Assembly (NCBI RefSeq): GCF_051903065.1 | Contig: NZ_CP178438.1 | Length of the DNA stretch: 64,000 bases | Origin: Escherichia coli | GTDB lineage: Bacteria; Pseudomonadota; Gammaproteobacteria; Enterobacterales; Enterobacteriaceae | Reading direction: 5' to 3' (one strand) | In this document: one piece after another, positions 22,889-50,598 of the stretch | Layout: each line of letters starts with the position of its first letter | How positions within the stretch are numbered: position 1 is the stretch's first letter | Program-made: the position numbers and the translations under genes | Notes under the pieces: model-generated | Databases searched by the model: none | Seen by the model: only the letters and a program-made list of their open reading frames with translations | Told to the model about the DNA's origin: nothing

Positions 22889-23945
22889 GGCTTTGTTGAA
22901 TAAATCAGATTTCGGGTAAGTCTCCCCCGTAGCGGGTTGTGTTTTCAGGCAATACGCACGCTTTCAGGCATACCTGCTTTCGTCATTTTGTTCAGCGCTC
23001 GTACCAGGGCCATAGCCTCTGCAACCTGACCATCGTAGTCACGCAGTGTCAGTGAACCCCCGAACAGCTGTTTTACCCGGTACATCGCCGTTTCCGCTAT
23101 CGAGCGACGGTTGTAATCTGTTGTCCATTTCCACCGCGCATTACTCCCGGTCATTCGCTGATTAGCCACTGCACGGTTACGGTCTGCATATTCACCGGGC
23201 CAGTAACCCGCACCTTTTCGGGGAGGGATAAGCGCGCTGATTTTCTTACGCCGCAGTTCATCGTGACATAGCCGGGTATCGTAAGCGCCATCGGCGGCGG
23301 CTGACCTGATTTTCCGGTGGGTTTGCCGGATTAACCCGGGGAAGGCCTCTGAGTCCGTAACGTTGTTCAGCGACAGGTCAGCGCAGATGATTTCATGTGT
23401 TTTACTGTCAACGGCGAGATGCAGCTTACGCCAGATACGGCGGCGTTCCTGGCCATGCTTTTTGACTTTCCACTCGCCTTCACCGAAGACCTTCAGCCCG
23501 GTGGAATCAATTACCAGGTGTGCGATTTCACCCCGGGTGGGCGTTTTGAAACTGACATTAACCGACTTTGCCCGCCTGCTGACACAGCTGTAATCCGGGC
23601 AGCGTAGCGGAACGTTCATCAGAGAAAAAATGGAATCAATAAAGCCCTGCGCAGCGCGCAGGGTCAGCCTGAATACGCGTTTAATGACCAGCACAGTCGT
23701 GATGGCAAGGTCAGAATAGCGCTGAGGTCTGCCTCGTGAAGAAGGTGTTGCTGACTCATACCAGGCCTGAATAGCTTCATCATCCAGCCAGAAAGTTATG
23801 GAGCCACGGTTGATGAGGGCTTTATTGTAGGTGGGCCAGTTGGTGATTTTGAACTTTTGCTTTGCCACGGAACGGTCTGCGTTGTCGGGAAGATACGTGA
23901 TCTGATCCTTCAACTCAGCAAAAGTTCGATTTATTCAACAAAGCC
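22889..23945 (-). mobile_element. IS903-like element (IS5 family), 1057 bp, 18-bp terminal inverted repeats, 9-bp target duplication ctcctgaac
   Basis: Ends ggctttgttgaataaatc / gatttattcaacaaagcc; flanked by identical ctcctgaac at 22880..22888 and 23946..23954. Confidence 0.85.
22945..23913 (-). CDS. IS903-type DDE transposase (322 aa)
   Basis: ORF with ...FKITNWPTYNKALINRGSITFWLDDEAIQAWY... characteristic of IS903/IS102 transposase. Confidence 0.85.
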   Translation of the reverse strand: MKDQITYLPDNADRSVAKQKFKITNWPTYNKALINRGSITFWLDDEAIQAWYESATPSSRGRPQRYSDLAITTVLVIKRVFRLTLRAAQGFIDSIFSLMNVPLRCPDYSCVSRRAKSVNVSFKTPTRGEIAHLVIDSTGLKVFGEGEWKVKKHGQERRRIWRKLHLAVDSKTHEIICADLSLNNVTDSEAFPGLIRQTHRKIRSAAADGAYDTRLCHDELRRKKISALIPPRKGAGYWPGEYADRNRAVANQRMTGSNARWKWTTDYNRRSIAETAMYRVKQLFGGSLTLRDYDGQVAEAMALVRALNKMTKAGMPESVRIA

Positions 23946-24805
23946 CTCCTGAACTACCAGAGTTTTTATACAAACTCGAAAACTACACCGGCAGTATTGT
24001 AACCCGTGAAGCTACAAAATTGTTGATGCTCACAGGGCTGAGAACAGTAGAATTACGTATGGGGGAATGGTGTGAGATCGATTTTACCCAAAAGATATGG
24101 GAAGTTCCTCCGACCCGGATGAAAATGAGGAAGGAGCATATCGTCCCTCTGTCAGATCAGGCAATCCAGTCTCTGCAAATCCTCAAAGAACTGACTGGAA
24201 GATACAGATACATCTTTGCCGGAAGAAATGATGTTAACAGGCCTATCAGCGATGCAAGCGTCAATATGGTTTTGAAGAAGATTGGCTATGACAAAAAAGC
24301 TACCGGGCATGGATTTCGTCATACAATGAGTACTGTTCTACACGAGCAAGGATTCAATAGTGCATGGATTGAAATGCAACTTGCACATACGGACAAAAAC
24401 AGCATTCGTGGTACATACAACCATGCTCGTTACCTTGAAGGAAGACGAGAAATGATGCAATGGTACGCTGACTACCTTGATGCTCTTCGAAAAGAGTCAC
24501 CAGCTATATAATCGCTTGATTTTAAAGGCTGACTTAACGATATCCCCCTGATAGTCATTTATCAGTTATCTAATTATTAAGTCAGCCATAATCCCCTAAG
24601 TATCATTCCTTAATCAGATTCAGCACCTTGTAATACGACCGGTTAATTTAGAAAGAGACGATAGATAAACGCTTATGATGAAATACTAAGAAATTACTTC
24701 AGGCTCTATTAACTGGAGCTGTAATAGACAATAATTTAAATAACGCAATAGTTATATTTATATCTTAATATAAATTTCCACTGTATTTAAGGTAATGACT
24801 CCAAC

Positions 24806-29393: not shown

Positions 29394-30342
29394 GACGGCA
29401 TCCTGAGGTGTACTGGCAATAGCGGACACTACCATTTGTTCTTTTTTTAAGCAGCCATCTGATGATATTTTTCCCTGAAGGCTGCCGGGGAGATATTCCC
29501 CAGACGAGAGTGACGACGCTGACGATTGTAGAAAATCTCAATGTATTCCCGTATTACTGAGATGGCCTCATCCCGGCTATTAAAACGATAGTGGCTCAGG
29601 CTCTCATTTTTCAGCGTTCCCCAGAAGCTTTCCATCGGAGCGTTGTCGTAACAGTTACCTTTACGCGACATTGATGTTTTCAGACCAAACTGCTCCTGGA
29701 TGACCCGGTAATCGTATGCGCAGTACTGTGAACCTCGATCGGAGTGGTGGATTAGCCCAGCAGGTGGGCGCTGGCTCCTGAGCGCCATAAACATGGCTTT
29801 ACCTGTCAGCTCTTTTGTCATGCGCTCTCCCATGGCGTAGCCGACAATTTCGCACGTATAAACATCTTTGATGCCAGCGAGGTACAACCATCCCTCCTGT
29901 GTGGCAACATACGTCAGGTCCGCCACCCAGACCTGATTTGGTACTGTAGGAGCGAACGTCTGGTTCAGCAGATTTGGCGCAACTGGCAGATTGTGGCTCG
30001 AGTTCGTAGTCGCTCTGAACTTGCGTTTCTGCTTACAGCGTAGCCTTAGCTCCTTACGAAGACGTGCCAGTCGGTCACGACCAACGATGATGCCATTCTC
30101 TGCCAGCTCCGTCTGGAGCCGCCGGGTTCCATATGTTTCGCGAGTGCTGATATGTGCCACCTTAATCTCCAGTTTTAGCCGCTCATCACTTTGTTTTCTG
30201 TCTGAGGGGTCATGCTGTACCCAGTTGTAATAACCGCTCCTGGATACACCAAATACCTGACACATCGCTTCAATGGGAAATTGTTGTCGCCATTGTTCGA
30301 TTAACGCGTATTTTTCAGCGACTCCTGTGCAAAATACGCTGT
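29394..30342 (-). mobile_element. Right half of an IS3-family element (terminus tgaggtgtactggcaatagcggacact at 29394), including orfB 29447..30342, cut by IS30
   Basis: orfB with DDE integrase core ...HHSDRGSQY...; terminal repeat matches the IS3-family terminus at 45109. Confidence 0.7.
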
Positions 30343-31563
30343 TGTAGATTCAATCTGTCAATGCAACACCCCTTTCAATTATCTCTTTCGGTGTTTTGAA
30401 CTTCAGTGTCTTTCTCGGTCTGTTGTTTAGCTGAGCAGCAACCAGATCTAGTTCATGTTGAGTATATTGGGCAAGACATGTCTTTTTAGGAAAGTACTGC
30501 CGAATTAGCCCATTTGTGTTCTCATTTGTTCCCCGCTGCCAAGGACTCTGAGGATCGCAGAAGTAAACTTTAACGCCGGTGCTGACAGTAAATTCTAGAT
30601 GTCTGGCCAGTTCCATTCCTCTGTCCCATGTCAGTGATTTTCTGAGTTCTGACGGTAAACTCAGGAATTTGTCGGTAAGAGCCTGATTTACTGAGACAGA
30701 ATCTTTGCCCCTGAGTCTAAGGATGATCGTATAACGTGATTTTCGGTCTACAAGTGTGGCTATATGAGAGTTTTTTGTACCTAAGACTAAATCGCCCTCC
30801 CAATGCCCCAGAGAGCGTCTGTTATCGATATTTCGGGAACGTTCGTGAATTGGTGTTCCGTTCACTATGTTAATCGTACCTCTTTCGCCTTTGCGGGTAT
30901 GACGCCTGCCATGGCGAAGGCTATGCGACCGTCGCAGATGCTGTATATTCAGGTGGTGTAGCGCTTCACGGCTACGAAAGTACAGCGTTTTATAAATTGT
31001 CTCAGGTGATATTCGCAGCGTTTTTTGACGTGGTTTTGTTCGCCTTAACCATCCTGATATTTGCTCTGGAGACCATTTCATCTCCAGCTTTTCCAGAACA
31101 AGCTTTCGCAATGGTAAATTTTGATCCAGTAAGCACGGTTTTGGCCTTTTCGCCATTCTGTTGGCTCGGTTATTAGCATCAACAGCTTTGTAATAGCGTC
31201 TGCCCCGATTACGCTGAACTTCACGTGAGATCGTCGAAGGACTGCGATTCAGCGCAGTAGCTATCGCACGAATGCTCATTTTGGCTGACAAACCAGCTCG
31301 TATCTCCTCGCGCTCAGACAGTGTCAGGTGAGCTACAGCCCGCTTACGCTCATGGGGTTTTATGCCGCCAGTATCCCTTAACATAGTGAAGATCGTTCCG
31401 GGTTTTGAACCCAGGATATTCGCTATTTCACTGAAGCCTGTTCCGTTCTTCCATAGTTCAAAAACAGAGGCTTTTTCCTCTGCTGTAAATGTTCGTCTCA
31501 TTCAAAAAACCTCTGCAACCCCATGTTTTCACATAACTGTTGCGTTGACCAATTGAATCTACA
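30343..31563 (-). mobile_element. IS30 copy 1 (1221 bp) with intact 383-aa transposase (30350..31501)
   Basis: Ends tgtagattcaat...; transposase MRRTFTAEEKASVFELWKNGTGFSEIANILG... identical to copy 2. Confidence 0.9.
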
Positions 31564-31877
31564 ACGGCTTTTTTTAATATGTCCCGTTCGTCGGTAACCC
31601 GCTTCAGCTCTTTCTGGAGACGGCGGATCTCGGCCTGAGCATCTGACTGTTCTTTATTAGTGGAAGAATCCGGACCGTACTTCTTTATCCAGGAGTAAAG
31701 GCTGTGGGTGGTGATATTGAGACGTGTTGCAACGCTGGCAACAGAATAACCGCGATCAACAACCTGTTTGACTGCTTCAATTTTAAACTCTTCGGGATAA
31801 CGCTTACCGCTCATGGGCACCTCTCTTTAAGTCATCTTAAATGACTCTGAGGTGTCTATTAAACCTGTGGCGATTCA
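31564..31877 (-). mobile_element. Left part of an IS3-family element: orfA (31564..31814, ends ...ERDILKKA) interrupted by IS30
   Basis: orfA MSGKRYPEEFKIEAVKQVVDRGYSVASVATRL... with HTH; frameshift heptamer aaaaaag 4 bp before IS30 junction. Confidence 0.65.
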
Positions 31878-32271: not shown

Positions 32272-32460
32272 TCACCTGTAATATTTATGCTTATTGCGTG
32301 GTTTTATCTGGTTATATAAAGCACAGATGTTCTCATTATTTTCTGAAAAATAACCATATGGATCGATTTCCCCCACCCAGCCGAAGCGGTTCGGCTCGTT
32401 CGGCGTGTCGTCGACACTGAAGCGCTTATCCACTTCGTTCCAGCGGTAAGAGTCGTCGCT
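32272..32460 (-). pseudogene. C-terminal fragment of an unknown protein, truncated upstream by an IS256-like end
   Basis: Open frame ...SDSDDSYRWNEVDKRFSVDDTPNEPNRFGWVGEIDPYGYFSENNENICALYNQ... with no recognisable family. Confidence 0.3.
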
Positions 32461-32701
32461 GTCGCTGACGAATGCCATCGGGTCGCTAAACAGCGTGATC
32501 CGCCATGCGATCAAAAAGCGTAAGTGTTTCCGACAGACGAGCCGGTGAAAAAAGTGGTGTGTCTGGCAATACAGGCATCGTCCCCGAAATGGACGATGCC
32601 GTTAAAGGACTGGGGTATGGCAATAAGCCGCTTTATTATCGGATTCAGTGACCGCCTGGACGGTTACTTTTGAGAAAAGGCATTTACACACAATCCTAAA
32701 C
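32456..32701 (+). mobile_element. IS256-family element 3' fragment (transposase C-terminus plus terminal repeat)
   Basis: Sequence at 32611..32701 is near-identical to the IS256-like end at 44381..44460; antisense ORF shares the WRITLFSD-MAFV frame with 43500..43829. Confidence 0.5.
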
Positions 32702-45108: not shown

Positions 45109-45435
45109 TGAGGTAGCCTGAGTTTAACGGACACTCCTTCCTGAAATAGAATGGCATCAGAAGGAGCTAATAATGAGCAGAAAAACCCAACGTTACTCTA
45201 AAGAGTTCAAAGCCGAAGCTGTCAGAACGGTTCTTGAAAATCAACTTTCGATCAGTGAAGGCGCTTCCCGATTATCTCTTCCTGAAGGCACTTTAGGACA
45301 ATGGGTTACCGCCGCCAGAAAAGGGCTCGGTACTCTTGGTTCCCGCACGGTGGCTGAACTGGAATCTGAAATTCTGCAACTGCGTAAGGCGTTAAATGAA
45401 GCTCGCCTTGAGCGAGATATATTAAAAAAAGCCGT
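45109..45435 (+). mobile_element. Left part of an IS3-family (IS600-like) element: terminus tgaggtagcctgagtttaacggacactcc, orfA 45173..45435 (ends ...ERDILKKA) interrupted by IS30
   Basis: orfA MSRKTQRYSKEFKAEAVRTVLENQLSISEGASRL...; terminus matches the one at 29394. Confidence 0.7.
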
Positions 45436-47572
<2,137 letters not shown>

Positions 47573-47573
47573 T

Positions 47574-47897
47574 GTCGTTGAACTGCATAATACTGGCCCA
47601 AGCACCGCAACCAGTCTTGCTGCGCTTATCGCTTTATGTTCGATATTGCTGGCAAAACCAGTACAGGAACAGATGGTGGTGTTGGGCAGTATGACGCTTG
47701 GTGGAGTAATTAACCCGATACAAGATCTTGCTGCCAGTTTACAGCTCGCCTTCGACAGCGGCGCAAAACGAGTTCTGTTGCCGATGTCCTCGGCTATGGA
47801 TATTCCAACGGTTCCGGCAGAGTTATTTACCAAGTTTCAGGTGAGTTTTTACTCAGACCCGGTTGATGCTGTTTATAAGGCGCTGGGTGTGAATTAA
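47574..47897 (+). pseudogene. Lon-like serine protease C-terminal (proteolytic) domain fragment, 5'-truncated at the IS3-family terminus
   Basis: Manual in-frame translation ...TGPSTATSLAALIALCSILAKPVQEQMVVLGSMTLGGVINPIQDLAASLQLAFDSGAKRVLLPMSSAMDIP... retains GPS and AKRVLLP motifs of the Lon Ser-Lys dyad; no ATPase domain present. Confidence 0.5.
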
Positions 47898-47968
47898 TGT
47901 AGTAACTATTTTAATGAACTGGAGAGGACAATGGCTCAAGAACGTTCTGTAATTAAATTCATCAGACC

Positions 47969-48736
47969 GGTAATGACTCCAACTTATTGATAGTGTTTTA
48001 TGTTCAGATAATGCCCGATGACTTTGTCATGCAGCTCCACCGATTTTGAGAACGACAGCGACTTCCGTCCCAGCCGTGCCAGGTGCTGCCTCAGATTCAG
48101 GTTATGCCGCTCAATTCGCTGCGTATATCGCTTGCTGATTACGTGCAGCTTTCCCTTCAGGCGGGATTCATACAGCGGCCAGCCATCCGTCATCCATATC
48201 ACCACGTCAAAGGGTGACAGCAGGCTCATAAGACGCCCCAGCGTCGCCATAGTGCGTTCACCGAATACGTGCGCAACAACCGTCTTCCGGAGCCTGTCAT
48301 ACGCGTAAAACAGCCAGCGCTGGCGCGATTTAGCCCCGACATAGCCCCACTGTTCGTCCATTTCCGCGCAGACGATGACGTCACTGCCCGGCTGTATGCG
48401 CGAGGTTACCGACTGCGGCCTGAGTTTTTTAAGTGACGTAAAATCGTGTTGAGGCCAACGCCCATAATGCGGGCTGTTGCCCGGCATCCAACGCCATTCA
48501 TGGCCATATCAATGATTTTCTGGTGCGTACCGGGTTGAGAAGCGGTGTAAGTGAACTGCAGTTGCCATGTTTTACGGCAGTGAGAGCAGAGATAGCGCTG
48601 ATGTCCGGCGGTGCTTTTGCCGTTACGCACCACCCCGTCAGTAGCTGAACAGGAGGGACAGCTGATAGAAACAGAAGCCACTGGAGCACCTCAAAAACAC
48701 CATCATACACTAAATCAGTAAGTTGGCAGCATCACC
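47969..48736 (-). mobile_element. IS1 copy 2 (768 bp; insB 47984..48487, insA 48406..48681), no target-site duplication
   Basis: Same ends as copy 1; flanks catcagacc vs ggctgttta do not match. Confidence 0.9.
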
Positions 48737-48890
48737 GGCTGTTTATGCTACCCGATTCTCAAATCAATTACCGAAAGCTTCTGTTCATCAACTAACTCAT
48801 TACTTTTAATGATGGGGCCCTTTCTGGGGCCCAAGAAATTAACAACGCTAACAAACAACATAAATAACAATAAATTAAATAAAAAATTTC

Positions 48891-48909
48891 ATTCCTGCAG
48901 GGGACACCA
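48891..48909. repeat. attR: 19-bp direct repeat of the argW 3' end (attcctgcaggggacacca) marking the island boundary
   Basis: Exact match to 22061..22079. Confidence 0.8.
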
Positions 48910-49350
48910 GATACCCTTCAAACCAAATCTACCTTCATCCCGTAAACGATGGGTTTGGCAGCACACTTGCCCTATATCTACTCATTTTTACTGCAACAGG
49001 TTGAAATCTCAGCACTGTCAGAAAGCGCTGATGACTAAACAGCCCTGGGCCGGGCGATGTAACCATCACACAGAATCCTGATAGCGAAATATGGCGTGAC
49101 TCGATACTTCACTCCGCAATGCATTCCTTGATGAATTCGCAGGCCCGTGATACACGCGACAGGTCGCTGAATGACGACAATGTCCTGGAAATCAGCGAAC
49201 CGTGTATCCGGAGTACATTTGAGCGACTGTACCAGAACATGAATGAGGTGTTTGGATTAGGCGATTATTAGCAGGGCTAAGCATTTTACTATTATTATTT
49301 TCCGGTTGAGGGATATAGAGCTATCGACAACAACCGGAAAAAGTTTACGT

Positions 49351-50598
49351 CTATATTGCTGAAGGTACAGGCGTTTCCATAACTATTTGCTCGCGTTTTT
49401 TACTCAGGAAGAAAATGCCAAATAGCAACATCAGGCAGACAATACCCGAAATTGCGAAGAAAACTGTCTGGTAGCCTGCGTGGTCAAAGAGTATCCCAGT
49501 CGGCGTTGAAAGCAGCACAATCCCAAGCGAACTGGCAATTTGAAAACCAATCAGAAAGATCGTCGACGACAGGCGCTTATCAAAGTTTGCCACGCTGTAT
49601 TTGAAGACGGATATGACACAAAGTGGAACCTCAATGGCATGTAACAGCTTCACTAATGAAATAATCCAGGGGTTAACGAACAGCGCGCAGGAAAGGATAC
49701 GCAACGCCATAATCACAACACCGATAAGTAATGCATTTTTTGGCCCTACCCGATTCACAAAGAACGGAATAATCGCCATGCACAGCGCTTCGAGTACCAC
49801 CTGGAATGAGTTGAGATAACCATACAGGCGCGTTCCTACATCGTGTGATTCGAATAAACCTGCATAAAAGACGGGAAAAAGTTGTTGATCAAAAATGTTA
49901 TAGAAAGACCACGTCCCAACAATAAATATGACGAAAACCCAGAAGTTTCGATCCTTGAAAACTGCGATAAAATCCTCTTTTTTTACCCCTCCCGCATCCG
50001 CCGCTACGCACTGGTGATCCTTATCTTTAAAACACATGTTGATCATCATAAATACAGCGCCAAATAGCGAGACCAACCAGAAGTTGATATGGGGACTGAT
50101 ACTAAAAAATATGCCGGCAAAGAACGCGCCAATAGCATAGCCAAAAGATCCCCAGGCGCGCGCTGTTCCATATTCGAAATGAAAATTTCGCGCCATTTTT
50201 TCAGTGAAGCTGTCAAGCAAACCGCAGCCCGCCAGATAACCCAGGCCAAAAAAGAGCGCACCCAGAATTAAACCTACAGAAAAATTGCTTTGCAGTAACG
50301 GTTCATAAACGTAAATCATAAACGGTCCGGTCAAGACCAGGATGAAACTCATACACCAGATGAGCGGTTTCTTCAGACCGAGTTTATCCTGAACGATGCC
50401 GTAGAACATCATAAATAGAATACTGGTAAACTGGTTGACCGAATAAAGTGTACCTAATTCCGTCCCTGTCAACCCTAGATGTCCTTTCAGCCAAATAGCG
50501 TATAACGACCACCACAGCGACCAGGAAATAAAAAAGAGAAATGAGTAACTGGATGCAAAACGATAGTACGCATTTCTGAATGGAATATTCAGTGCCAT
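49351..50598 (-). CDS. cscB: CscB sucrose:H+ symporter (MFS, 415 aa)
   Basis: ORF MALNIPFRNAYYRFASSYSFLFFISWSLWWSLYAIWLKGHLGL... matches recalled CscB. Confidence 0.85.
   Translation of the reverse strand: MALNIPFRNAYYRFASSYSFLFFISWSLWWSLYAIWLKGHLGLTGTELGTLYSVNQFTSILFMMFYGIVQDKLGLKKPLIWCMSFILVLTGPFMIYVYEPLLQSNFSVGLILGALFFGLGYLAGCGLLDSFTEKMARNFHFEYGTARAWGSFGYAIGAFFAGIFFSISPHINFWLVSLFGAVFMMINMCFKDKDHQCVAADAGGVKKEDFIAVFKDRNFWVFVIFIVGTWSFYNIFDQQLFPVFYAGLFESHDVGTRLYGYLNSFQVVLEALCMAIIPFFVNRVGPKNALLIGVVIMALRILSCALFVNPWIISLVKLLHAIEVPLCVISVFKYSVANFDKRLSSTIFLIGFQIASSLGIVLLSTPTGILFDHAGYQTVFFAISGIVCLMLLFGIFFLSKKREQIVMETPVPSAI

What the first reader, a model, noticed from the sequence alone, without database searches (positions are those of the whole stretch)
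47574..47897. Orphan Lon-like protease catalytic-domain fragment, possible remnant of a defence or proteolysis module
Immediately after the IS3-family terminus at 47572 an open frame encodes a Lon proteolytic domain with GPS and AKRVLLP motifs but no ATPase domain or start codon. Stand-alone Lon-like proteases occur as the last gene of BREX-type defence loci, so this may be the tail of a defence system otherwise deleted by IS activity. That link is speculative.
Basis: inference. Interest (0 to 1): 0.45.

Follow-up and report, generated by a model that had tools for sequence, protein, structure and literature searches.

The report
Dead tail of BREX gene brxL
This is the last 109 codons of brxL, the final gene of a type 1 BREX anti-phage system, left between two insertion sequences in an E. 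coli genomic island; it is an ordinary pseudogene scar and almost certainly does nothing.

Summary
An open frame runs from just after an IS911-like terminus (47572) to a TAA stop at 47895-47897, with no usable start at its 5' end.

It is the 3' end of brxL, not a housekeeping Lon:
- The NCBIfam BrxL model matches at E=4e-48, covering profile positions 569-675 of 675. Lon scores only E=1e-8.
- PADLOC BrxL matches at E=1e-38.
- The translation is 99% identical to residues 586-694 of an intact 694-aa E. coli BrxL. That protein closes a brxA-brxB-brxC-pglX-pglZ-brxL operon in strain 13P460A.

No other BREX piece survives in the window. The relic (47568/47573-47968) holds the brxL tail, the 33-nt spacer and the first 37 nt of the next gene. 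An IS911-like element cuts it on the left. An IS1 with no target duplication cuts it on the right. It lies in a decayed island at tRNA argW.

The same IS-brxL junction occurs in 64 of 5426 complete E. coli genomes, where RefSeq marks it as an incomplete "S16 family serine protease" pseudogene.

"Catalytic domain" overstates it. The fragment is only the C-terminal half of a Lon-like fold, and a serine replaces Lon's catalytic lysine. Published BrxL structures show no protease motif.

Novelty and interest are low.

The parts
47568..47897 (+). 3' remnant of brxL: codons for residues 586-694 of the 694-aa BrxL plus the TAA stop. The first 5 nt (47568-47572, CTTCA) are shared with the IS terminus, so the true breakpoint lies anywhere from 47568 to 47573.
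   Evidence: tblastn with intact BrxL: residues 586-694 match 47568-47894 at 99.1% identity, E=1e-62. NCBIfam TIGR02653 BrxL positions 569-675 of 675, E=4.4e-48. PADLOC BrxL E=1.1e-38. PDB 8EMH residues 571-678 of 679. Junction alignment.
47898..47968 (+). Sequence that follows brxL in intact loci: a 33-nt spacer with a Shine-Dalgarno-like GGAGAGG, then the first 37 nt (ATG at 47931) of the hypothetical gene downstream of brxL. IS1 cuts it at 47968/47969.
   Evidence: Alignment with 13P460A and ZF8-1. blastn match 47568-47968 to L002 19995-20395. tblastn of the downstream protein, residues 1-16, at 47931-47978. In relatives without the IS1 this piece runs on to 565 nt in all.
45112..47572 (+). 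IS911-like (IS3 family) element that truncates brxL. Its right terminal repeat is intact (47549-47572), its left end is missing, and its orfA/orfB is interrupted by an IS30 copy (about 45431-46661). The left coordinate is approximate.
   Evidence: RefSeq annotation of the identical region. NCBIfam IS3 transposase hits for 45173-45541 and 46725-47564. IS30 inverted repeats 45431-45461 / 46631-46661. Only one terminal repeat of the element is found in the window. Other IS911 copies end at 47572.
47969..48736 (-). IS1A-like element that truncates the relic on the right. It has no 9-bp target duplication (catcagacc on the left, ggctgttta on the right), as expected if it caused or took part in a deletion.
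   Evidence: blastn to the IS1 of L002, 99.5% identity. RefSeq annotation. Flanks read. Relatives lacking this IS1 carry a further 164 nt of the relic and a CP4-like gene module here.

Best explanation
The feature is a non-functional 3' remnant (pseudogene scar) of brxL, the last gene of a type 1 BREX phage-exclusion operon (brxA-brxB-brxC-pglX-pglZ-brxL).

Likely history:
- An ancestor of this genomic island, or a donor of part of it, carried a BREX-1 cassette followed by the same hypothetical gene seen after brxL in strain 13P460A.
- An IS911-like element came to lie at codon 585/586 of brxL, and everything upstream (brxA to the first 585 codons of brxL) was lost. The IS has no brxL sequence on its other side and has itself lost its left end.
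- The downstream gene was cut after about 204 nt in the common ancestor of the 64 carrier genomes.
- In the lineage of this window an IS1 then removed all but 37 nt of that gene, together with an adjacent CP4-like module.

What remains encodes only the C-terminal 58% of BrxL's Lon-like C-terminal domain. It has no AAA+ ATPase, no DNA-binding N-terminal domain, no promoter call and no start codon at its 5' end. It therefore cannot provide BREX function, which needs the other BREX genes as well.

What is shown: its identity as brxL, the boundaries, the IS flanks, the absence of other BREX genes in the window, and its distribution. What is inferred: the order of the deletion events and the lack of expression.
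For: - Identity. BrxL-specific profiles match at E=4e-48 and 1e-38, against Lon at 1e-8. The fragment covers the extreme C-terminus of the profile and of the solved BrxL structure. It is 99.1% identical in protein and 98.3% in DNA to an intact E. coli brxL, and the homology continues past the stop codon into the next gene.
- Intact counterpart. The matching gene sits in a complete BREX-1 gene order (brxC there is itself split by an IS1).
- No other BREX sequence. blastn and tblastn with all six BREX proteins find nothing else in the 64-kb window.
- Boundaries. The IS911 terminus is at 47572 and IS1 starts at 47969 with no target duplication.
- Distribution. The same junction occurs in 64 of 5426 complete genomes. 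RefSeq annotates it as 'incomplete; missing N-terminus'.
- Open frame needs no selection. Of 18 variable sites among the window, two other remnant copies and five intact alleles, 16 are synonymous. At all but one of the 18 sites the remnant's base is also found in at least one intact allele. The single change confined to remnant copies is non-synonymous (V to I, 47718) and is shared with ZF8-1 but not Combat11I9. The frame is open because little time has passed since truncation.
- No expression signals. No sigma-70-like promoter or terminator was called in 47400-48100. There is no Rfam match, and the RNA fold is unremarkable at z=-1.7.
- Requirement for the whole protein. Restriction by BrxL needs its ATPase (E280Q loses restriction, PMC10164562). 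In E. coli, protection was also lost when brxB, brxC, brxX (pglX) or brxZ (pglZ) was deleted; deleting brxA had no effect (PMC6326788).
Against: - The frame is intact, with no internal stop or frameshift in 109 codons, and it is kept in 64 genomes. On its own that could hint at retention.
- An internal ATG (47673) is preceded by AGGA at 47665-47668, and a TTG at 47646 opens an 83-codon ORF. A short peptide is therefore not excluded.
- The outward-facing TTGACC in the IS terminal repeat (47561-47566) lies 19 nt from CATAAT (47586-47591). This weak hybrid promoter falls outside the scanner's 16-18 nt spacer rule (my reading of the sequence).
- Over-expression of a longer (807-nt) brxL 3' remnant in Salmonella changed global transcription (PMC9009780).
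- No expression data are available for this locus.
Confidence: 0.93

Rival explanations
1. [quoted passage not shown] That protein would have a biological effect, for example interfering with BrxL ring dimerisation in incoming or co-resident BREX systems, or perturbing transcription as reported for an engineered brxL 3' fragment.
For: - The frame is open, with in-frame TTG (47646) and ATG (47673, AGGA 4 nt upstream).
- A possible weak hybrid promoter is formed by the IS terminal repeat (my reading).
- The BrxL C-terminal domain mediates ring-ring dimerisation (PMC10164562).
- An 807-nt brxL 3' remnant driven by a strong cat promoter altered global transcription in Salmonella (PMC9009780).
Against: - Only 58% of the C-terminal domain is encoded (residues 78-185 of the 186-aa crystallised domain), and 74-83 aa from an internal start is less still. 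It is unlikely to fold.
- The promoter scan found nothing.
- The internal start and AGGA are inherited from the intact gene, not acquired.
- The only change confined to remnant copies is non-synonymous.
- The carrier genome closest to the window has no second brxL copy to interfere with (places_in_record = 1).
- IS1 erodes the relic further in this lineage, and another genome has an even shorter form (H71, 223 nt). That is the pattern of decay, not retention.
Confidence: 0.04
2. The fragment derives from an ordinary Lon-family protease or another Lon-domain protein (Lon, LonB/LonC, YcbZ, RadA/Sms, or a CARF-Lon of type III CRISPR) rather than from BREX.
For: Pfam assigns only Lon_C. RefSeq names it 'S16 family serine protease'. 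There are weak hits to Lon, RadA and LonB models (E=1e-8 to 1e-4).
Against: - The BrxL equivalog-level model scores 164 bits, against 34 bits for Lon.
- PADLOC CARF-Lon scores only E=0.054.
- It is 99% identical to annotated BrxL inside complete BREX operons, and the homology extends into the brxL-specific downstream sequence.
Confidence: 0.01
3. The brxL tail was carried here passively as IS-flanked DNA from a BREX locus elsewhere (for example the leuX island, by IS911 recombination, inversion or composite transposition). On this view the argW island never held a BREX system.
For: - The closest intact allele found sits at the leuX island, not at argW.
- The island is a patchwork of at least eight IS types, with two inverted IS911::IS30 copies that could mediate rearrangements.
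- No other BREX piece is present in the island.
Against: - The right side of the ancestral 565-nt relic is joined to CP4-like island DNA without an IS, so it is not a simple composite transposon.
- No genome was examined in which the reciprocal product (brxL 5' part next to an IS911 left end) exists.
- This rival changes only the history, not what the sequence is or does.
Confidence: 0.25

Closest known systems
BrxL of type 1 BREX (E. coli alleles such as WP_001193073.1 in strain 13P460A; Acinetobacter BrxL structures 8EMH, 8EMC, 8EIL)
   Same: The sequence matches the last 109 residues: 99% identity to the E. coli protein, and a strong match (E=1.2e-40) over residues 571-678 of the solved Acinetobacter protein. 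The stop codon and downstream spacer are the same as in the intact E. coli locus.
   Different: Residues 1-585 are missing: the N-terminal DNA-binding domain, the AAA+ ATPase and the first 42% of the C-terminal domain. There is no start codon or promoter, and none of the other five BREX genes is present in the window.
Lon protease proteolytic domain (Pfam Lon_C, MEROPS S16; E. coli Lon structure 1RR9)
   Same: It has the same fold family. It matches the Lon_C profile at positions 108-200 of 205 (E=1.7e-9), and the Ser of GPS aligns with Lon's catalytic serine.
   Different: The catalytic Lys position of Lon aligns to a Ser in the fragment. The K in AKRVLLP corresponds to a non-catalytic position. 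In Acinetobacter BrxL even the GPS serine is Leu. The structural paper finds no protease motif and assigns the domain a ring-dimerisation role (PMC10164562).
Engineered 'brxL 3' remnant in Salmonella StySA (delta-brxL::cat, PMC9009780)
   Same: Both are 3' portions of brxL left after loss of the 5' part, and both retain the Lon_C-like signature.
   Different: The Salmonella remnant is 807 nt, covers the whole C-terminal domain and is driven by a strong cat promoter. The remnant here is 330 nt, covers half a domain and has no detectable promoter.
Short brxL 3' remnants at the leuX/nanM defence hot spot of other E. coli
   Same: These are also brxL tails left after loss of a BREX cassette, annotated as incomplete hypothetical proteins.
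   Different: They sit at a different locus, are shorter (177-240 nt), belong to a different allele (91-93% identity), and the two examples examined are not bounded by IS911. They represent independent events.

Membership tests
BrxL (NCBIfam TIGR02653 / PADLOC BrxL) | Sequence match to the BrxL-specific profile, clearly better than to Lon, RadA or LonB profiles | tested here: met
   BrxL E=4.4e-48 (164 bits) against Lon E=1.4e-8 (34 bits). The score is below the whole-protein cut-off of 628 bits only because 16% of the protein is present. PADLOC BrxL E=1.1e-38.
BrxL (NCBIfam TIGR02653 / PADLOC BrxL) | Full-length architecture: N-terminal domain, AAA+ ATPase with Walker motifs, and Lon-like C-terminal domain (about 680-694 aa) | tested here: not met
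   Only profile positions 569-675 of 675 are present, corresponding to residues 586-694 of 694. It is a fragment of a member, not a functional member.
Type 1 BREX system | Operon brxA-brxB-brxC-pglX-pglZ-brxL present together | tested here: not met
   blastn and tblastn with all six proteins of the 13P460A locus find only the brxL tail in the 64-kb window. The intact gene order is seen in strain 13P460A.
Type 1 BREX system | brxL is the last gene of the operon, and the fragment derives from such a gene | tested here: met
   The near-identical full-length gene is the last gene of the operon in L002. The fragment shares its stop codon, spacer and the start of the next gene.
Lon protease (MEROPS S16) | Ser-Lys catalytic dyad in the proteolytic domain | tested here: not met
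   The Ser of GPS aligns with the Lon catalytic Ser, but the Lon catalytic Lys column holds Ser in the fragment (alignments to 7P6U and 1RR9). The literature agrees (PMC10164562, PMC9009780).
Lon protease (MEROPS S16) | Proteolytic activity | not testable with these tools
   This needs biochemistry. The fragment lacks half the domain, so activity is not expected.
Pseudogene / IS-generated gene remnant | Truncated relative to intact homologues, with the breakpoint coinciding exactly with a mobile-element terminus | tested here: met
   The IS911-like terminus is at 47572 and brxL homology starts at 47568-47573. The IS1 terminus is at 47969. RefSeq flags it as 'incomplete; missing N-terminus'.

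The most novel reading that the evidence does not exclude
The brxL tail is not inert. It would be transcribed from a hybrid promoter that uses the outward -35 of the IS terminal repeat, and translated from the internal ATG at 47673. The resulting 74-aa piece of the BrxL ring-dimerisation domain would modulate BREX systems arriving by horizontal transfer, or would perturb host transcription as the engineered Salmonella brxL remnant does.
Probability: 0.03. Interest if true: 0.55.

Novelty: already known. Interest (0 to 1): 0.1.

Why it matters
It matters little in itself. The result shows that this E. coli lineage, or the donor of its argW island, once had a type 1 BREX phage-defence system and lost it through insertion-sequence activity.

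It has two modest uses:
- **Annotation.** The RefSeq name 'S16 family serine protease' for this pseudogene (seen in the carrier genomes listed and examined, out of 64 that share the junction) could be sharpened to 'brxL, 3' remnant'. Calling it a protease is misleading, because BrxL's Lon-like domain lacks the catalytic dyad.
- **Lineage and turnover marker.** The IS911-brxL junction is a clean marker for this lineage. Together with the independent short brxL tails at the leuX hot spot in about 180 other genomes, it shows how often BREX cassettes are lost in E. coli and that their 3' ends tend to survive as scars.

Tried and rejected
- **Other BREX remnants in the window.** blastn of 25 kb of the intact locus and tblastn with BrxA, BrxB, BrxC, PglX, PglZ, BrxL and the downstream protein found nothing beyond the brxL tail and 16 residues of the downstream gene.
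- **The 'alkaline phosphatase' pseudogene at 32356-32469 (-).** I suspected a PglZ piece, but tblastn with PglZ found no match there. I rejected that idea.
- **Housekeeping Lon, LonB, RadA or CARF-Lon origin.** Rejected on profile scores.
- **An RNA element in or near the relic.** There is no Rfam match at E<=1 in 47300-49400, and the fold z-score is -1.7.
- **Promoter or terminator.** The scanner found none in 47400-48100. I noted by eye a TTGACC-19 nt-CATAAT combination but give it little weight.
- **Selection test.** Too few changes are confined to the remnant copies (one) to estimate dN/dS.
- **Large-database searches.** I did not use the protein, metagenome or structure searches. The E. 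coli genome collection and the profile libraries had already settled the question.

Full report

Yes. Translating 47574-47897 gives 107 residues and a stop: VVELHNTGPSTATSLAALIALCSILLAKPVQEQMVVLGSMTLGGVINPIQDLAASLQLAFDSGAKRVLLPMSSAMDIPTVPAELFTKFQVSFYSDPVDAVYKALGVN*.

The frame is open from 47565, immediately after the TGA (47562-47564) that ends the IS transposase orfB (46725-47564). By chance that stop lies in the same frame. There is no start codon at the 5' end. The first in-frame starts are TTG at 47646 (an 83-codon ORF) and ATG at 47673 (read).

The IS terminus at 47572 is confirmed independently. When window:47420-47720 is searched against 5426 complete E. coli genomes, IS911-like copies in other contexts stop matching at query position 153, which is 47572. 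The terminal repeat TGAAGTGGTCAACAAAAACTGGCC lies at 47549-47572 on the minus strand.

**2. What is it?**

Profile searches are unambiguous:
- The NCBIfam model for 'protease Lon-related BREX system protein BrxL' (TIGR02653) matches at E=4.4e-48 over profile positions 569-675 of 675. Endopeptidase La (Lon) reaches only 1.4e-8, RadA 6e-7 and LonB 4e-6.
- PADLOC's BrxL model gives E=1.1e-38 over positions 574-680 of 680.
- Pfam sees only the generic Lon_C domain, at positions 108-200 of 205 with E=1.7e-9.
- Among solved structures the best matches are the Acinetobacter BrxL entries 8EIL, 8EMH and 8EMC, at residues 571-678 of 679 with E about 1e-40.

**3. The intact counterpart**

In the E. coli genome collection the DNA matches 589 genomes. 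In the records listed from the 95-99% identity band, the match lies at the end of a full-length gene annotated brxL.

In strain 13P460A (locus L002) that gene is the last of brxA-brxB-brxC-pglX-pglZ-brxL, in the leuX island. The brxC there is itself split by an IS1.

tblastn with that 694-aa BrxL aligns residues 586-694 to 47568-47894 at 99.1% identity. blastn aligns 47568-47968 to the end of brxL, the 33-nt spacer and the first 37 nt of the following hypothetical gene, at 98.3% identity.

None of the other five BREX proteins, and no other part of BrxL, has any match in the window.

**4. Boundaries and history**

On the left, homology to brxL begins at 47568 and the IS ends at 47572. The 5 nt CTTCA are common to both, so the breakpoint cannot be placed more precisely.

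The IS911-like element has lost its own left terminal repeat; only one copy of the repeat exists in the window. An IS30 interrupts it, with inverted repeats at 45431-45461 and 46631-46661 (annotation). Decayed group II intron reverse-transcriptase pieces precede it, not brxL. The upstream part of BREX was therefore deleted or separated, not merely interrupted.

On the right, an IS1 begins at 47969 and ends at 48736. The 9 nt flanking it differ (catcagacc and ggctgttta), which is the signature of an IS1-associated deletion or recombination.

Relatives that lack this IS1 (ZF8-1, Combat11I9) carry the same IS911-brxL junction. In them the relic runs on for 565 nt, to about nt 204 of the downstream gene. 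A CP4-like module then follows: zinc-ribbon proteins, a Gp2-family protein, Hha, a GTPase, Ag43, DUF932 and an antirestriction protein. In the window all of this is gone, and only a 50-residue DUF4942 piece remains before cscB.

The whole patchwork lies in an island that starts at tRNA-Arg(CCU) argW, at 22005-22079. An IS splits the island's P4-type integrase (IS903B annotation).

**5. Distribution and age**

Exactly 64 of 5426 complete genomes have a match covering at least 80% of the junction-spanning query. They come from human, chicken and environmental isolates. RefSeq annotates the relic as 'S16 family serine protease; incomplete; missing N-terminus'.

I compared the 330-nt coding part of the window with two other remnant copies and five intact alleles:
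- 18 sites vary, and 16 of them are synonymous.
- At all but one site the remnant's base is also present in at least one intact allele.
- The one change confined to remnant copies is non-synonymous (G to A at 47718, Val to Ile). It is shared with ZF8-1 but not with Combat11I9.

The open frame therefore needs no explanation by selection. The relic has simply accumulated almost no changes since truncation. The data are too thin for a formal dN/dS.

**6. How the intact protein works, and why the fragment cannot**

BrxL is required for BREX restriction but not for methylation in E. coli (PMC6326788) and Salmonella (PMC9009780).

[quoted passage not shown] The Walker B mutant E280Q loses restriction (PMC10164562).

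My own alignment agrees. The Ser of GPS aligns to Lon's catalytic serine, but the column of Lon's catalytic lysine holds Ser in the fragment. The Lys of AKRVLLP corresponds to a non-catalytic position. In Acinetobacter BrxL the GPS serine is Leu.

The fragment covers residues 78-185 of the 186-residue crystallised C-terminal domain, roughly its last 58%. It has no ATPase and no N-terminal domain. It cannot form the ring, bind DNA or hydrolyse ATP, and the other BREX genes are absent.

**7. Could it still do something?**

I looked for signs of expression or of another kind of element:
- The promoter/terminator scan found nothing in 47400-48100.
- There is no Rfam match.
- The RNA fold is unremarkable, with z=-1.7.

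By eye, the outward TTGACC of the IS terminal repeat (47561-47566) lies 19 nt from CATAAT (47586-47591), and ATG 47673 has AGGA 4 nt upstream. Both features are weak, and the second is inherited from the intact gene.

The one published hint is that an 807-nt brxL 3' remnant driven by a strong cat promoter changed global transcription in Salmonella (PMC9009780). That construct covers the whole C-terminal domain, and this relic does not. I give a functional reading about 3-4%.

**8. Comparison with the known, and verdict**

This is a fragment of a known gene from a known system, broken by known mobile elements, and it is already flagged as a pseudogene in public annotation.

Two refinements apply. 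'Catalytic' is inaccurate for BrxL's Lon-like domain. The brxL-derived DNA also extends past the stop codon, to 47968.

Novelty: already known. Interest: low (0.1).

Noticed in passing
other E. coli genomes, e.g. L005:8998-9177 (strain 181.1) and L006:8998-9240 (strain ECJXMCRH7): A second, independent class of brxL 3' remnants exists. They are 177-240 nt long and 91-93% identical to the window's copy. In the two examples examined they sit at the nanM/leuX hot spot, right after a phosphorothioated-DNA-binding restriction endonuclease gene, with different cargo downstream. About 181 genomes fall in this identity band, so brxL tails seem to be recurrent scars of BREX cassette replacement.
   Followed up: partly
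window 22005-24511: tRNA-Arg(CCU) argW lies at 22005-22079. It is followed by a P4-type integrase gene split into two ORFs (22228-22899 and 24020-24511) by an inserted IS903B-like copy (about 22889-23948). The island that holds the relic has a dead integrase.
   Followed up: partly
window 29447-31820 (-) and 45112-47572 (+): There are two inverted copies of the same composite, an IS911-like element carrying an IS30 insertion. Only one terminal repeat of the IS911-like element survives in the whole window (47549-47572). The pair could mediate inversion of the roughly 13 kb between them.
   Followed up: partly
window 47562-47567: The stop codon of the IS transposase orfB (TGA at 47562-47564) is in the same reading frame as the brxL remnant. 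A single stop separates the two frames. With odds of one in three this is most likely coincidence, and the transposase gene is in any case broken by IS30.
   Followed up: no
window 47969-49271: The IS1 (47969-48736) lacks a 9-bp target duplication. Relatives without it carry a CP4-like module here (zinc-ribbon proteins, Gp2-family protein, Hha, GTPase, Ag43, DUF932, antirestriction protein). In the window only a 50-residue DUF4942 piece (49119-49271) remains before the csc sucrose operon, which indicates an IS1-associated deletion.
   Followed up: partly
window 43831-45134 (-): Decayed pieces of a group II intron reverse transcriptase/maturase (RVT_1 and GIIM hits below gathering score, spread over three frames) and a Mutator-family transposase fragment abut the truncated left end of the IS911-like element.
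   Followed up: partly
window 32356-32469 (-): RefSeq labels a 114-nt pseudogene 'alkaline phosphatase'. I checked it as a possible PglZ relic and tblastn with PglZ found no match there, so I do not take it for a BREX piece. Its origin is otherwise unexplored.
   Followed up: partly
L002:7327-11744 (strain 13P460A): In the closest genome with a full-length brxL, an IS1 splits brxC, so that BREX system is probably also inactive. IS attrition of BREX-1 seems common in E. coli.
   Followed up: no
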